In this document: piece by piece, positions 3,693 to 63,732 of the stretch | Numbering within the stretch: position 1 is the first letter of the stretch | How the letters are laid out: the number at the start of each line of letters is the position of its first letter | Source: Candidatus Saccharimonadota bacterium | GTDB lineage: Bacteria > Patescibacteriota > Saccharimonadia > Saccharimonadales > Saccharimonadaceae | Assembly: GCA_017431725.1 (NCBI GenBank) | Contig: JAFRKN010000003.1 | Location: 25,912 to 89,911, forward strand | Reading direction: 5' to 3' | DNA length: 64,000 nucleotides | Notes under the pieces: model-generated | The model's input: the letters and a program-made list of their open reading frames with translations, nothing else | Database searches by the model: none | What the model was told of the DNA's origin: nothing | Position numbers and translations under genes: made by a program

Positions 3693-3812
3693 AAAAAAAC
3701 TGGAAATAATACTTTAAGGGGCTTCCGGAGGTTACGACCGAGGATGAGGGCGTGAGCCCCGTGACGACGGGCGCGAACGACCCGTCCCCGAAAAGTATTA
3801 TTCCAGTTTTTT
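3693..3812. repeat. ~120-bp palindromic element, intergenic copy
   Basis: Arms AAAAAAACTGGAAATAATACTTT and AAAAGTATTATTCCAGTTTTTT are near-perfect inverted repeats. The GC-rich core GAGCCCCGTGACGACGGGCGCGA (3754-3776) matches 63235-63257 at 22/23 nt. Confidence 0.9.
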
Positions 3813-3844: not shown

Positions 3845-4228
3845 TTAGGCAAGCTCGACAGTTGCACCAGCTTCTTCAAGTGCTTTCTTCATTGCTTCAG
3901 CATCAGCCTTAGCGACTTTTTCTTTAACGGTGGCAGGAGCTCCGTCTACAATAGCCTTAGCTTCGCCAAGACCAAGCCCGGTAGCTTCCTTCACGGCCTT
4001 AATTACTGCGATTTTTTGCGCACCAGCGTCTTTCAAAACGACGTCATATTCGCTTTTACCTTCATCAGCAGCTTCACCAGCTTCTGCCGCTGGTCCAGCT
4101 GCAACCGCTACAGCAGCAGCGGCTGGCTCAATACCGTATTCGTCCTTGAGGACATTTTTTAATTCGTTGACTTCGAGAACAGTTAATTTAACTAGTTCTT
4201 CGGCTAATTTTTTAATATCTGTAGCCAT
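3845..4228 (-). CDS. rplL: 50S ribosomal protein L7/L12
   Basis: LTVLEVNEL, Ala-rich hinge, KIAVIKAVK...GLGEAK. Confidence 0.98.
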
Positions 4229-11507: not shown

Positions 11508-11558
11508 AACAATCATTATAACACGAAAAAACGCCACTCTGGCGCCTTTTAATTCGAC

Positions 11559-11700
11559 TGGCTGGGGATGAGGGATTCGATTCGAAGAACGAGTCCTGCT
11601 TTTTGTGCATGCTCGTTAGAGCATGGCTGGGGATGAGGGATTCGACCGGAGCGTCAGCGACGGACGAGTCCTGCTTTTTGATGTTTTTGTGAAACAAAAA
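11559..11700 (-). repeat. Two exact 22-nt copies of the tRNA-Gln 3' end separated by motif-bearing units
   Basis: TGGCTGGGGATGAGGGATTCGA occurs at 11559-11580, 11624-11645 and 11701-11722. Both intervening units contain ACGAGTCCTGCTTTTTG. Confidence 0.95.
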
Positions 11701-11775
11701 TGGCTGGGGATGAGGGATTCGAACCCCCGAATGTCGGGACCAGAACCCGATGCCTTACCACTTGGCGAATCCCCA
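11701..11775 (-). tRNA. tRNA-Gln(CTG)
   Basis: Cloverleaf TGGGGAT/ATCCCCA, anticodon arm TCGGG-TTCTGGT-CCCGA, GTTCGAATC T-loop, encoded CCA. Confidence 0.97.
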
Positions 11776-33497: not shown

Positions 33498-33532
33498 TTT
33501 TGTTATCCGATTAAATAAAAAAATAATATTGA

Positions 33533-33676
33533 AAGTAGGACTCGCTCGAAATAGTAGCGACAACCGATGCCCTGCTTTTTAATACACTTTCGCAAGAAAG
33601 TGGTGCTGGAAGTAGGACTCGATTCGAATGAAGTGAGAACCGATGTCCTGCTTTTTAATGCACTTTCGCAAGAAAG
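33533..33676 (-). repeat. Exact 22-nt and partial 12-nt copies of the tRNA-Tyr 3' end separated by near-duplicate motif units
   Basis: TGGTGCTGGAAGTAGGACTCGA at 33601-33622 equals 33677-33698; AAGTAGGACTCG at 33533-33544. Both units contain AACCGATG(T/C)CCTGCTTTTTAAT(G/A)CACTTTCGCAAGAAAG. Confidence 0.95.
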
Positions 33677-33761
33677 TGGTGCTGGAAGTAGGACTCGAAC
33701 CTACGAAGCCCGAAGGCGAGAGATTTACAGTCTCTTGTCATTGCCACTAGACGATTCCAGC
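33677..33761 (-). tRNA. tRNA-Tyr(GTA)
   Basis: GCTGGAA/TTCCAGC acceptor, AGAGA-CTGTAAA-TCTCT anticodon arm, long variable arm, encoded CCA. Confidence 0.97.
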
Positions 33762-60810: not shown

Positions 60811-61313
60811 AAATTCATTATACCATATATTGCAATTCCTGCCGCCACCGAAACGTTAAAAGACTCTTTTTTGCCCCTCATTGGAATTTCTACAAACAGG
60901 TCAATTATATCATATAATGAATAATCAATCCCATTCACTTCTTCTCCTAAGATTAAAACCATTTTATCTGTTAATTTAGTTTTTAGCAAAGGGTCATTTA
61001 ATGAAAAAATCCGTTCATCATTGATATTATTTTCTAACCCTATGATTTGCCAACCCTGTTTTTTAAAATCATCAAGCTCTGAAAAAATATCATCACATGA
61101 ATAAATATCTAATAATTTTTCCGTCCCCAAAGCTGTCTTATGAATTTCTTTATTTAATTTTTCTCTTAAATGTGGCAATAAGCTCGCATCATTTACTTTT
61201 GGTGTATAGCCAGACAAAAGCACTTTAAAAACCCCTAATCCTTCTGCTGTCCTCAAAATTGCCCCCACATTATAAATCGAACGAATATTATGCAAAACTA
61301 AAATTATTTTCAT
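60807..61313 (-). CDS. TrmH/SpoU-family RNA methyltransferase
   Basis: LHNIRSIYNVGAILRTA, LGEEVNG, IPMRGKKESFNVSVA; start reassigned to 61313. Confidence 0.92.
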   Translation of the reverse strand: MKIILVLHNIRSIYNVGAILRTAEGLGVFKVLLSGYTPKVNDASLLPHLREKLNKEIHKTALGTEKLLDIYSCDDIFSELDDFKKQGWQIIGLENNINDERIFSLNDPLLKTKLTDKMVLILGEEVNGIDYSLYDIIDLFVEIPMRGKKESFNVSVAAGIAIYGIMNL

Positions 61314-61350
61314 CCCTATATTATACAATAAATATGATATAATTAAACCT

Positions 61351-63732
61351 ATGAATAGATACGAACCTCTCAAAATTGAACAAAAATGGCAAAAAATCTG
61401 GGAAACTGAAAAACCTTTTAAAGCTAATGAAGTTCCAAACCAACCTAAAATGTTTCTGGCCGAAATGTTCCCCTATCCTTCCGGAGCTGGCCTCCATGTT
61501 GGGCATGTCCGTAATTTCACTATTGTTGACGTTTTAACCCGTTTTTATGAACAGCAAAGATTAAACGTTTTAAGACCGTTTGGCTATGATACCTTTGGTT
61601 TGCCAGCCGAAAACTATGCCATCAAAACTGGTATTTCCCCTCAATCCGCCACCAAAACTAACATCGATAATTTTCGTAAACAGGCCAAAAAGCTCGGCTT
61701 TGCCATTGACTGGGATCGCGAAATCAACACTTCTGACCCCGAATATTACAAATGGACTCAGTGGTGTTTTCTACAGTTATATAAAAAAGGGCTCGCCTAT
61801 CAGAAAGAATCTTATCAATGGTGGTGTCCCGAAGATCAAACCGTTCTCGCTAACGAACAAGTCGAAAACGGCAAATGTTGGCGTTGTGGTCACGAAGTCG
61901 AAAAGAAAAAAATGAAACAATGGTTCTTTAAAATTACCGCTTACGCCGATGAACTCCTCGACGAAATTGACAATCTCGAATGGCCCGAAAAAATTAAAAC
62001 CATGCAAAAGAACTGGATCGGTCGCTCTGTTGGCGCCGAAATCGATTTTAAGGTAACCGAAAGTTCTCTTAAAATTAAAGTTTTTACGACTCGCCCCGAT
62101 ACCATCTTCGGCGCTACCTTCCTAGTCGTCGCTCCTGAATATCCTTATCTCGATGTCTTAACAACCGACGATACCCGCGAAACGGTTCTTAATTATAAAG
62201 CCGAAGCCTTGAAAAAATCCGAAATTGAACGTCAGGAAAATAAAGAAAAAACTGGCGTTTTTACCGGAAGCTATGCTATTAACCCCGCAACTAAAGAAAA
62301 AATTCCCATTTATGTTGCTGATTATGTTTTGGCTGGTTATGGCACGGGAGCCATTATGGCTGTTCCTGCTTACGACGAACGTGATCGCGAATTCGCCAAA
62401 AAATTTGATTTACCAATTGTCGAAGCTAAGCTGTGCGATCGCGATCTATTCGGTACTCCCAAAACTATTTATCGTATGCGTGATTGGCTCATTTCACGCC
62501 AGCGTTACTGGGGTTGTCCAATTCCAATCGCCTATGATAAAGAAGGCAATCCTCATCCTATTCCTGAAGATCAACTTCCAGTTATTATCCCAGAGGTCGA
62601 AGATTATCAACCCGATCACTCTGGGCATTCCGCCCTCGCCAAAGCCAAAGATTGGCTTAAGGTCAAAATAGAAGTCAAAGATTCAAAAACTGGCAAAACT
62701 CACCTGGAAGAAATGACCAGAGAGACTGATACATTGGATGGTTATGCTTGTTCATCTTGGTATCTTTGGCGTTATGCCTCACCCCATGATGAAACAGCCG
62801 CTTGGGATCAAAAAGCCATTAAATATTGGGAGCCGATCGACTATTATGTTGGTGCCGATCACGCTGTTGCCCATTTGCTTTATATTCGCTTTTGGTGCAA
62901 ATTTTTTGCCGATGAAGATTATTTGCCTTTCCGTGAACCGATAAAACGCCTTCTTTATAATGGCTATATCAACGCTCCCGATGGCAAAAAGATGTCTAAA
63001 TCTAAAGGTAATGTTATCGACCCACTCGATGTTATTAACGATGGCTATGGTGCCGACACCTTAAGAACTTACGAAATGTTTATTGGGCCATACGACATGG
63101 ATGCCGCTTGGGATCCACGTTCTGTCGGCGGCGTTTACCGCTTCCTTAATCGTTGCTGGACTTTATGCTTCGACAGCGAATTTGCGAAAACCTCTTCTGA
63201 GGGGCATCCACAGTTGCTACGAGGACGAAACGAGGAGCCCCGTGAAGACGGGCGCGACGAGCATCCCGAAGAAGACGGTTTTGCAAATTCGCTTTTTTCT
63301 AGACATAAAACCATCAAAAAAGTCACCGAAGATCTCCACCGCTACAATTTCAATACCGCCGTCGCCGCTTTAATGGAATATGTCAATGAACTTTATAAAA
63401 TCGGCGCATCTGAAGAAGATTTGATTACCTTAGCAAAATTATTAAAACCTTTTGCCCCTCATCTCGCCTCCGAAATGCTAGAAAAATTAAACTCTGACGA
63501 CGAATGGCCAAAATGGGACGAAAAATATCTCATTGCTGATATCGTTGAAATCGTTATCCAAATTAATGGTAAACTTCGCGCCAAACTAACCGTCAACGCC
63601 AGCGACCTAGAAGATGAAGAAAAAATTACCAAACTTGCCTTAAAAGACGAAAAAATTAAAAAATACACCGAAAATGACATCAAAAAAACTATTTTCATCA
63701 AAAAAGCTAAATTATTAAATATTGTAATTTAA
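61351..63732 (+). CDS. leuS: Leucyl-tRNA synthetase carrying an in-frame palindromic insertion
   Basis: MFPYPSGAGLHVGH, TTRPDT, DWLISRQRYWG, KMSKSKGN; extra GC-rich segment at about residues 609-648. Confidence 0.98.
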   Translation: MNRYEPLKIEQKWQKIWETEKPFKANEVPNQPKMFLAEMFPYPSGAGLHVGHVRNFTIVDVLTRFYEQQRLNVLRPFGYDTFGLPAENYAIKTGISPQSATKTNIDNFRKQAKKLGFAIDWDREINTSDPEYYKWTQWCFLQLYKKGLAYQKESYQWWCPEDQTVLANEQVENGKCWRCGHEVEKKKMKQWFFKITAYADELLDEIDNLEWPEKIKTMQKNWIGRSVGAEIDFKVTESSLKIKVFTTRPDTIFGATFLVVAPEYPYLDVLTTDDTRETVLNYKAEALKKSEIERQENKEKTGVFTGSYAINPATKEKIPIYVADYVLAGYGTGAIMAVPAYDERDREFAKKFDLPIVEAKLCDRDLFGTPKTIYRMRDWLISRQRYWGCPIPIAYDKEGNPHPIPEDQLPVIIPEVEDYQPDHSGHSALAKAKDWLKVKIEVKDSKTGKTHLEEMTRETDTLDGYACSSWYLWRYASPHDETAAWDQKAIKYWEPIDYYVGADHAVAHLLYIRFWCKFFADEDYLPFREPIKRLLYNGYINAPDGKKMSKSKGNVIDPLDVINDGYGADTLRTYEMFIGPYDMDAAWDPRSVGGVYRFLNRCWTLCFDSEFAKTSSEGHPQLLRGRNEEPREDGRDEHPEEDGFANSLFSRHKTIKKVTEDLHRYNFNTAVAALMEYVNELYKIGASEEDLITLAKLLKPFAPHLASEMLEKLNSDDEWPKWDEKYLIADIVEIVIQINGKLRAKLTVNASDLEDEEKITKLALKDEKIKKYTENDIKKTIFIKKAKLLNIVI
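63175..63293. repeat. ~119-bp palindromic element in frame in leuS
   Basis: Arms AGCGAATTTGCGAAAACCTCTTC and GAAGACGGTTTTGCAAATTCGCT; core GAGCCCCGTGAAGACGGGCGCGA shared with 3754-3776. Confidence 0.9.

What the first reader, a model, noticed from the sequence alone, without database searches (positions are those of the whole stretch)
3693..3812. Intergenic ~120-bp palindrome whose core is shared with an insertion inside leuS
A GC-rich interior (3718-3792) is enclosed by ~22-nt AT-rich inverted arms. The interior aligns along its length with 63201-63270 (GGGGC(T/A)TCC...CGAGGA(T/C)GA...GAGCCCCGTGA(C/A)GACGGGCGCGA...CCCGAA). Geometry is almost identical: core starts 61 vs 60 nt from the left end, ends 36 nt from the right end in both, total 120 vs 119 bp. 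The arms are unrelated between the two copies. It is far longer and more structured than the terminator needed after rplL.
Basis: seen in the sequence. Interest (0 to 1): 0.7.

Follow-up and report, generated by a model that had tools for sequence, protein, structure and literature searches.

The report
Hairpin-tip repeat family in tiny Saccharibacteria
The 120-base palindrome behind rplL is one of 27 copies of an undescribed GC-rich hairpin repeat that sits mostly in frame inside essential genes of a tiny gut bacterium, much like the palindromic elements of Rickettsia but with stems private to each site and an orientation that follows DNA strand asymmetry.

Summary
Window 3694-3812 is a 21-bp AT-rich stem enclosing a 72-nt GC-rich core. 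The leuS insert (63175-63293) has a related core and an unrelated 24-nt stem.

They belong to a family of 27 copies in this 752-kb Candidatus Nanosyncoccus (Saccharibacteria) genome. 23 lie in frame inside genes, mostly tRNA synthetases and tRNA-modifying enzymes. The core motif occurs in 197 of 251 genus genomes at 0-50 copies and only at background level elsewhere in the phylum.

Most relatives have a plain terminator behind rplL. G000, G057 and G017 share homologous stems there but carry different or inverted cores.

In six orthologous leuS copies 16 of 21 stem pairs changed on both sides while staying paired. There are no target-site duplications, no shared terminal repeats, no Y1 or TnpB gene and no Rfam match.

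In G000 all 27 copies put their more stable strand on the strand with negative GC skew, whatever the host gene's direction. This points to a DNA-level, replication-linked hairpin rather than an RNA.

Best reading: a selfish repeat like the Rickettsia palindromic elements, a new variant. Spread by template switching is inferred, not shown. This scan had already noted the leuS copy (e1-5280324).

The parts
3694..3715 (+). Left arm of the rplL-downstream copy: 22 nt, AT-rich, with one bulged A and a leading A-run.
   Evidence: It is homologous to the arms at the same site in G057 and G017.
3716..3791 (+). Core unit, subtype A: junction AA, then a 72-nt GC-rich core (3718-3789), then junction GA. 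The core is a closing stem GGGG/CCCC plus two hairpins.
   Evidence: The same subtype occurs in the MnmA and UvrD genes and at C3:77744.
3754..3776 (+). Most conserved part of the family, hairpin 2: GAGCCCCGT-GACG-ACGGGCGCGA.
   Evidence: The outer pairs of this hairpin show changes on both sides in the 19-copy alignment.
3792..3812 (+). Right arm of the rplL-downstream copy: 21 nt, ending in a T-run.
3845..4228 (-). rplL (ribosomal protein L7/L12). The element occupies the place of this gene's terminator.
   Evidence: ORF list and Pfam labels on the identical locus. Relatives have a plain bidirectional terminator here.
63175..63198 (+). Left arm of the leuS copy, 24 nt. It encodes SEFAKTSS.
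63199..63269 (+). Core unit, subtype B, inside leuS: GA, then a 67-nt core (63201-63267), then GA. It is read in frame.
63270..63293 (+). Right arm of the leuS copy, 24 nt. It encodes EDGFANSL.
61276..63729 (+). leuS open frame (818 codons from stop to stop) that hosts the second copy. The insert lies in the variable linker between RFLNRCW.. and RHKTIKKVT.

Best explanation
The rplL palindrome and the leuS insert are two members of a genus-wide family of selfish 'hairpin-tip' repeats.

Each copy has two layers. The first is a conserved, GC-rich unit of about 70-75 nt (GA-core-GA) that folds on one strand into a closing stem plus two hairpins rich in tandem G.A pairs. The second is a long stem of 15-30 bp whose sequence is private to the locus.

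The stems are inherited at a site. They change quickly but always on both sides, so pairing is kept. The core unit can be inverted or swapped for another subtype between the same stems.

Copies survive only where they do no harm. That means in frame in surface linkers of large enzymes, where they are translated as roughly 30-40 extra residues, or at terminator positions. The rplL copy sits at such a position and probably also serves as the terminator hairpin.

The phenomenon works on DNA and is tied to replication. The strand that folds better lies on the strand with negative GC skew, which I infer to be the leading-strand template. The weaker complement then lies on the lagging-strand template, which is exposed as single strand.

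Steps that are inferred, not shown:
- Spread, core exchange and stem upkeep occur by template switching (copy choice) at hairpins, or by recombination between the arms, rather than by an element-specific transposase.
- The orientation bias comes from preferential loss of copies whose stable hairpin is on the lagging-strand template, or from strand-specific insertion.
For: Shown by tool results:

- Copy census: 27 copies, each with its own near-perfect stem. 23 of 27 lie inside long open frames. The hosts are Dus, MiaA, QueA, TGT, MnmA, a TrmA-like methyltransferase, an RluA-type pseudouridine synthase, GatB, the Arg, Asp, Leu, Ile and Val tRNA synthetases, Obg and a few others.
- Reading frames: sense copies use two reading phases and antisense copies three, so no peptide is conserved.
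- Empty sites: relative G004 has about 2-4 copies and most G000 sites are empty there.
- Hotspot: the leuS linker is filled in 29 of 80 loci, in both orientations and with several subtypes. A close trio (84-88% identical flanks) shows one empty site, one sense copy and one antisense copy.
- Distribution: the motif is in 197 of 251 genus genomes at 0-50 copies, and only at background level in the 398 sampled genomes of the phylum outside the genus.
- rplL site: most relatives have a plain terminator. G000, G057 and G017 share homologous arms but carry subtype A forward, subtype A inverted (junction reads TC..TC) and subtype E.
- TGT site: G000 and G057 share outer arms but differ in core.
- Stem covariation: in six orthologous leuS copies 96.8% of cells are paired and 16 of 21 pairs changed on both sides. 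There are 25 two-sided changes against 3 one-sided. No shuffle out of 500 reached this, and slid controls gave 41-53% pairing.
- Core conservation: cores are 81-99% identical while arms are 50-75% identical.
- Orientation: 27 of 27 copies in G000 have the folding strand on the negative-skew strand, regardless of gene strand. G200 gives 34 of 34, G188 21 of 28 and other species 16 of 20.
- Strand identity: 63% of conserved coding length lies on the positive-skew strand. The ribosomal-protein genes in the window do too.
- Arm mismatches: 21 G.T against 2 A.C on the element strand.
- Folding as DNA: the element strand is more stable than its complement in 10 of 10 copies.
- Negative results: no direct target duplication (observed 2.5 nt, null 2.7 nt). 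No Y1/RAYT or TnpB gene in five genomes. No Rfam match.
Against: - No exact pair of filled and empty alleles from one species was found. The insertion junctions, and whether one arm is copied from the target, remain unresolved.
- My test that deletes one arm and rescores against G004 failed its own control.
- The orientation rule has exceptions: 7 of 28 in G188 and 4 of 20 across species.
- Cores that are 97-99% identical sit in species whose flanking genes are about 75% identical. This implies constraint on the core or transfer between species. Neither is explained by a purely passive repeat.
- The strong excess of tRNA and translation enzymes among host genes and the excess of sense copies could hint at a function.
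Translation of the inserts is inferred from the intact frames only.
- A reverse transcriptase gene exists in G000, and DDE transposases were not searched for.
Confidence: 0.7

Rival explanations
1. A classical non-autonomous transposon (a MITE, or a partner of a single-strand-DNA transposase). An enzyme not yet recognised moves it by recognising the folded core.
For: - Copy number ranges from 0 to 50 among species.
- Insertion hotspots recur.
- Four copies carry identical 19-bp arms at four loci.
- Strand bias relative to replication is typical of IS200/IS605-type elements (the comparison itself is from my own knowledge).
- Core subtypes are conserved across species.
Against: - No target-site duplication.
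- Arms are unrelated between loci even where cores are 100% identical.
- No Y1/RAYT or TnpB gene in five genomes, including those with the most copies.
- The folding strand lies on the inferred leading-strand template. That is the opposite of what IS608-type insertion would give if the folding strand is the active one (inference).
Confidence: 0.15
2. A functional structured RNA, either a cis-regulatory or terminator element or a small RNA. On this reading the core binds a common factor and the stems insulate it, coordinating genes of the translation apparatus.
For: - The core is conserved and shows compensatory pairs.
- UACG-type loops and tandem G.A motifs are seen in the sequence.
- G.T is tolerated but A.C is not.
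- The finding's copy sits exactly where relatives have a terminator and carries A and T runs.
- Host genes are mostly tRNA and translation enzymes, and sense copies are in excess at 16 to 7.
Against: - Orientation follows GC skew, not the host gene's strand.
- The G.T excess also holds in the arms of antisense copies, where the mRNA would carry the complement.
- Stem changes are almost all two-sided, with very few G-U intermediates.
- Presence at a given site is highly variable among species.
- The core is inverted at the rplL site in G057.
- No Rfam family matches.
Confidence: 0.12
3. An intervening sequence, intron-like or intein-like, that is removed from the mRNA or the protein so that the host enzymes stay native.
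For: The element sits in essential, conserved genes, and a long stem would bring the two junctions together.
Against: - Every genic copy keeps the host frame open. The one sense phase that the loop's TGA or TAA would close is never used, as expected if the inserts are translated.
- Several frames and both orientations occur.
- No intron family matched in Rfam.
- No intein-like coding capacity is possible in 30-40 residues.
Confidence: 0.03

Closest known systems
Rickettsia palindromic elements (RPE-1 to RPE-10; Ogata et al., as summarised in PMC10969869)
   Same: Both are short (about 100-150 bp) palindromic repeats in a reduced genome. Both insert many times in frame into unrelated conserved genes and are presumably translated. 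Neither has a known transposase (for RPEs; here).
   Different: - RPE copies share sequence along their whole length, and each family encodes one conserved peptide. Here only the central roughly 70 nt is shared.
- Here the stems are private to each locus and co-vary.
- Here several reading phases and both orientations are used.
- Here orientation follows GC skew.
- The host is a different phylum (Saccharibacteria). Sequence relatedness to RPEs was not tested.
Mobile GC clusters and double-hairpin elements of fungal mitochondrial genomes, and the related 'byp' elements (from my own knowledge)
   Same: GC-rich elements that form hairpins, scattered in an AT-rich small genome. They are found in intergenic regions and inside coding or rRNA genes, without an element-encoded enzyme.
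   Different: They occur in organelles. Some are bypassed by the ribosome rather than translated. They are not reported to have locus-specific co-varying stems or a replication-strand orientation rule. None of this was tested here.
REP/BIME elements with RAYT transposases, and IS200/IS605 single-strand-DNA elements
   Same: Hairpin-based repeats, structure rather than sequence at the ends, and strand-specific behaviour linked to replication.
   Different: - No Y1/RAYT or TnpB gene was found.
- REPs are extragenic and 20-40 bp long. Here 23 of 27 copies are intragenic and about 120 bp long.
- The ends are not conserved here.
Palindrome instability and quasi-palindrome correction by template switching at replication forks (Ripley's model; Trinh and Sinden 1991; work of the Lovett laboratory; from my own knowledge)
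   Same: It predicts three things seen here. Imperfect inverted repeats are made perfect by changes templated from the other arm, which matches the two-sided changes. The outcome depends on which strand carries the more stable hairpin relative to the lagging-strand template. No dedicated enzyme is needed.
   Different: It is a mutational mechanism known from laboratory reporters, not a described family of natural elements. Its role here is inferred.
Terminator-like MITEs such as SPRITE of pneumococcus and Correia elements of Neisseria (PMC10969869 for the former; the latter from my own knowledge)
   Same: Repeats that sit at gene ends and can act as terminator hairpins, as the rplL copy probably does.
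   Different: Those have conserved terminal inverted repeats and target duplications. Both were tested here and not found.

Membership tests
Rickettsia palindromic elements (RPE) | Short palindromic repeat inserted in frame in many unrelated protein genes | tested here: met
   23 of 27 copies lie inside intact long open frames of 21 genes. The same holds in G188.
Rickettsia palindromic elements (RPE) | Each family encodes one conserved peptide because it is read in one frame | tested here: not met
   Sense copies use two phases and antisense copies three, so the peptides differ.
Rickettsia palindromic elements (RPE) | Sequence homology to the RPE-1 to RPE-10 consensus sequences | not tested
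   No RPE sequences were compared. The motif is confined to one Saccharibacteria genus in the samples searched.
MITE (miniature inverted-repeat transposable element) | Terminal inverted repeats conserved among copies | tested here: not met
   Arms are unrelated between loci even where cores are identical. One subgroup of four copies does share 19-bp arms.
MITE (miniature inverted-repeat transposable element) | Direct target-site duplications | tested here: not met
   The longest flanking direct repeat averages 2.5 nt, against 2.7 nt in 3000 random controls.
MITE (miniature inverted-repeat transposable element) | A related autonomous insertion sequence or transposase in the genome | tested here: inconclusive
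   Y1 and TnpB genes are absent. DDE transposases were not searched for. A reverse transcriptase is present but also occurs in a genome with no copies.
REP/BIME with RAYT (REPtron) | A RAYT (Y1 HUH transposase) gene in the genome | tested here: not met
   PF01797 was absent from G000, G200, G188, G002 and G007. The same search hit 6 of 14 control genomes.
REP/BIME with RAYT (REPtron) | Extragenic location | tested here: not met
   23 of 27 copies are intragenic in G000. In G200, however, 27 of 30 sampled copies are intergenic.
Intrinsic (rho-independent) terminator | Hairpin followed by a T-run directly after a gene, at the place where orthologous loci have their terminator | tested here: met
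   The arms carry A6 and T6-7 runs. G004 and 23 other relatives have a plain A-run, stem, T-run hairpin at the same spot before the sequence ACAATTAGCTAAC. Terminator activity itself was not tested.
Any described RNA family (Rfam 15) | Match to a covariance model | tested here: not met
   There was no credible hit at E <= 10 around the finding. There was no hit at E <= 0.1 in 12 loci covering all subtypes.

The most novel reading that the evidence does not exclude
A transposase-free way of moving DNA: a folded core cassette that hops, flips and is exchanged between the tips of long, locus-specific stems by replication-coupled template switching. The same process keeps the stems perfectly paired. 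It favours genes of the tRNA and translation apparatus for a mechanistic or functional reason not yet understood.
Probability: 0.3. Interest if true: 0.85.

Novelty: new variant of a known kind. Interest (0 to 1): 0.62.

Why it matters
Saccharibacteria and other ultra-small bacteria are thought to have streamlined genomes with few mobile elements. Yet here up to 50 copies of one repeat sit inside or beside essential genes and lengthen tRNA synthetases and tRNA-modifying enzymes by 30-40 residues each.

- **Annotation and assembly.** The family explains the roughly 30-residue length steps seen in these proteins across the genus. It is also a source of broken or chimeric contigs.
- **Mechanism.** It offers an unusually clean natural system. 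There are many independent filled, empty, flipped and swapped sites, so one can ask how hairpin repeats spread and are maintained without a transposase, and how replication asymmetry shapes them.
- **Protein evolution.** It is a second, independent case, after Rickettsia, of selfish DNA being translated inside housekeeping proteins of a reduced genome.

Tried and rejected
- **Rfam searches** around the finding and over 12 other copies found nothing.
- **Candidate mobilising enzymes.** Y1/RAYT and TnpB genes are absent. A reverse transcriptase is present but does not track copy number, and is probably part of a diversity-generating retroelement.
- **Direct target duplications** were not found.
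- **Exact empty alleles within the species.**
  - The ArgRS homologue search found only the identical protein, with the next hit at 77% identity.
  - Contigs encoding the identical L7/L12 protein all carry the same element, or break or turn chimeric inside the core.
- **Which arm is native.** I compared net insert size with G004 and rescored proteins after deleting one arm, both arms or neither.
  - The first version was biased by its window size.
  - In the second version, the control copy whose arms are known to travel with the core also preferred 'keep one arm'. I therefore do not rely on this test.
- **Hints that remain.** The Dus, TGT and MnmA alignments suggest that one outer arm matches native codons. 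The outermost 6 bp at C3:77744 match the native terminator stem of G004. These stay as hints only.
- **RNAalifold on the alignment of mixed subtypes** recovered only hairpin 2.
- **Literature.** Two searches on the element found no description of it in Saccharibacteria or the Candidate Phyla Radiation. A third search, on Rickettsia palindromic elements, was for comparison only.

Full report
**1. The observation**

The finding is accurate. Window 3694-3812 reads as a 22-nt arm, AA, a 72-nt GC-rich core, GA and a 21-nt arm. The arms form 21 base pairs with one bulged A. The fold is far better than shuffled sequence, with z = -6.7 as RNA and -7.1 as DNA.

The second site, 63175-63293, lies inside the leuS frame. 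It is also 119 nt long and has its own 24-nt arms, unrelated to those at rplL.

**2. A repeat family**

The window lies in an assembly of 752 kb in 18 contigs with about 39% G+C. Relatives fetched by LeuRS are named Candidatus Saccharibacteria or Candidatus Nanosyncoccus, from rumen and gut samples. Genome G004 is N. alces, identified by its contig length of 176,314 bases.

A profile search finds 27 copies. At least five core subtypes exist. They share hairpin 2 (CCCGT-RANG-ACGGG) and the closing stem, but differ in hairpin 1.

Every copy is flanked by a 15-30 bp near-perfect stem of its own, joined to the core by GA..GA. Hairpin 2 shows compensatory changes. No Rfam family matches any subtype.

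**3. Where the copies sit**

23 of 27 copies lie inside long intact open frames, 16 in sense and 7 in antisense orientation. The host genes are:
- tRNA modification: Dus, MiaA, QueA, TGT, MnmA, a TrmA-like methyltransferase, an RluA-type pseudouridine synthase, and a class-V aminotransferase.
- tRNA charging: GatB and the Arg (two copies), Asp, Leu, Ile and Val tRNA synthetases.
- Others: Obg (two copies), UvrD, a P-type ATPase, an M1 peptidase, RecX and one unknown protein.

Sense copies use two reading phases. The third is closed by the TGA or TAA in the loop. Antisense copies use three phases, so no peptide is conserved. The inserts look like tolerated passengers, not protein modules.

In G188 the genic hosts are again mostly tRNA synthetases, GatA and GatB, tRNA modifiers and ribosome-associated GTPases. 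Many of these sites are shared with G000, so they are not independent events. In G200 (50 copies), 27 of 30 sampled copies are intergenic. The three genic ones are in BipA, PheRS-beta and LepA.

By my rough estimate tRNA-handling genes make up under a tenth of the coding length. The excess therefore looks real. It was not tested with a full annotation.

**4. Presence and absence**

- G004 has about 2-4 copies and most G000 sites are empty there.
- The motif occurs in 197 of 251 genus genomes at 0-50 copies. The reversed-pattern control is near zero.
- In a 400-genome sample of the phylum, the 398 genomes outside the genus have only background counts, including nine from other genera of the same family.
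- The leuS linker is filled in 29 of 80 loci, in both orientations and with several subtypes. In one close trio (84-88% identical flanks) one species is empty, one has a sense subtype-B copy and one an antisense subtype-A copy.
- A second leuS hotspot and the TGT site behave in the same way.
- ArgRS lengths across the genus step by about 30 residues.

**5. The rplL site**

Of 29 other genus members, 24 have a plain bidirectional terminator at this position, for example AAAAATCACCCC-ATGG-GGGGTGATTTTT in G004.

G000, G057 and G017 share homologous long AT-rich arms with compensated differences. Between these arms lie subtype A forward, subtype A inverted (its junction reads TC..TC) and subtype E, respectively. 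G060 and G037 carry a different short core with the same GA..GA junction.

At C3:77744 the outermost 6 bp of the stem match the native terminator stem of G004. At the TGT site G000 and G057 share outer arms but differ in inner arm and core.

So the stems belong to the locus, and the unit GA-core-GA can flip or be replaced.

**6. The arms co-vary**

Six orthologous subtype-B copies in leuS align without gaps. In their arms 96.8% of cells are paired and 16 of 21 pairs have changed on both sides. There are 25 two-sided changes against 3 one-sided ones. No shuffle out of 500 reaches this, and slid controls give 41-53% pairing.

Cores are 81-99% identical, and 66 of 67 in two pairs of species. Arms are only 50-75% identical. 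Flanking genes are about 75-79% identical.

Four copies at four sites in three genes share identical 19-bp arms, so arms can travel with the core. Each of the four has 4-5 further complementary bases of its own. The Dus copy has a core identical to those four but unrelated arms.

**7. A DNA-level, replication-linked feature**

In G000 all 27 copies have the folding strand on the strand with negative local GC skew, whether the host gene is on that strand or not. By my calculation the two-sided binomial probability is about 1.5e-8, if the copies are treated as independent.

G200 gives 34 of 34 and G188 21 of 28. Six of the seven G188 exceptions are sense copies in genes on the positive-skew strand. 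Loci from other species give 16 of 20.

63% of conserved coding length lies on the positive-skew strand. The ribosomal-protein genes in the window do too. I therefore take positive skew as the leading strand, which is an inference.

Arm mismatches are 21 G.T against 2 A.C on the element strand. The element strand folds better than its complement as DNA in 10 of 10 copies, by 0.8-4.9 kcal/mol.

These results argue against an mRNA-level role. They fit the known greater instability of hairpins on the lagging-strand template (Trinh and Sinden 1991, recalled from memory).

**8. Mechanism**

There are no direct target duplications, no conserved terminal repeats, and no Y1/RAYT or TnpB genes. A reverse transcriptase is present, but it also occurs in a genome with no copies.

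I therefore favour copy-choice template switching, or recombination at hairpins, for three processes:
- upkeep of the stems, which explains why changes are two-sided;
- inversion and replacement of the core;
- seeding of new sites at terminators or short inverted repeats. The empty leuS allele L111 has a native 6-bp inverted repeat at the spot.

This is inference. An unrecognised enzyme remains possible. The high conservation of cores across species needs either constraint or transfer between species.

**9. Limits**

No filled and empty pair from one species was found. My scoring test for native arms failed its control.

**10. Relation to earlier work**

Two searches on the element found no description of it in Saccharibacteria. 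The closest known kind is the Rickettsia palindromic elements.

This scan had already noted the leuS copy and called it RPE-like (e1-5280324). I agree with that. I add the locus-specific co-varying stems, the flipping and replacement of the core, the orientation rule, and the terminator context of the copy given to me.

Noticed in passing
window 11551-11775 and 33531-33761: Behind tRNA-Gln and tRNA-Tyr sit short hairpin units that end in copies of the tRNA's 3' end. Earlier scan notes describe these, and I read the sequence again here. A link to the palindrome family is suggested only by the excess of tRNA-enzyme host genes and by a shared GAGC..GCGA frame.
   Followed up: partly
L175 and L189 (rplL-downstream loci of G060 and G037), about 60-160 nt upstream of the rplL stop: A different, shorter core (GGGAGT..GGCC-loop-GGCC..GCTCCC) sits at the same terminator position. 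It has the same GA..GA junction and long private arms, so it looks like a second family built on the same plan.
   Followed up: no
G004 Obg ortholog (C6, about 119-120.5 kb), and LeuRS of L033 and L110: Another in-frame insert family that encodes ..EDRKLGRAPLSVSE.. recurs in Obg and LeuRS of relatives, at the same sites where G000 has the present element.
   Followed up: no
G000:C8:4108-18272, upstream of the window: A reverse transcriptase gene (C8:7363-7974) lies next to very large genome-specific open frames, one of 2263 residues. It looks like a diversity-generating retroelement.
   Followed up: no
L230-L232 (Logan contigs carrying the identical rplL): Short-read contigs end inside the core, or join the rplL copy to the flank of the MnmA copy. 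The repeat breaks assemblies and makes them chimeric.
   Followed up: partly
G000 contig C3 (95.8 kb): 79% of conserved coding length lies on the strand with negative GC skew, unlike the other contigs. C3 also holds 9 of the 27 copies; 7 are sense copies in genes and 2 are intergenic.
   Followed up: no
left arms of most copies, e.g. window 3706; C18:9588; C3:59761; C9:43455: Nearly every copy has one bulged base, usually A, in the left arm 8-13 nt from the core junction. Subtype B and the four-copy group also have a bulged C 7 nt into the right arm. This regularity across unrelated arm sequences is unexplained.
   Followed up: partly
LeuRS loci L029-L033, L036, between ..EIDF.. and ..VFTTRPD: A second insertion hotspot in leuS carries elements in six genus members. 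It is empty in G000.
   Followed up: partly
G200 (L233-L262): In this 1.1-Mb relative with 50 copies, 27 of 30 sampled copies are intergenic. That is the opposite of G000, so the balance between genic and intergenic copies differs strongly between species.
   Followed up: partly
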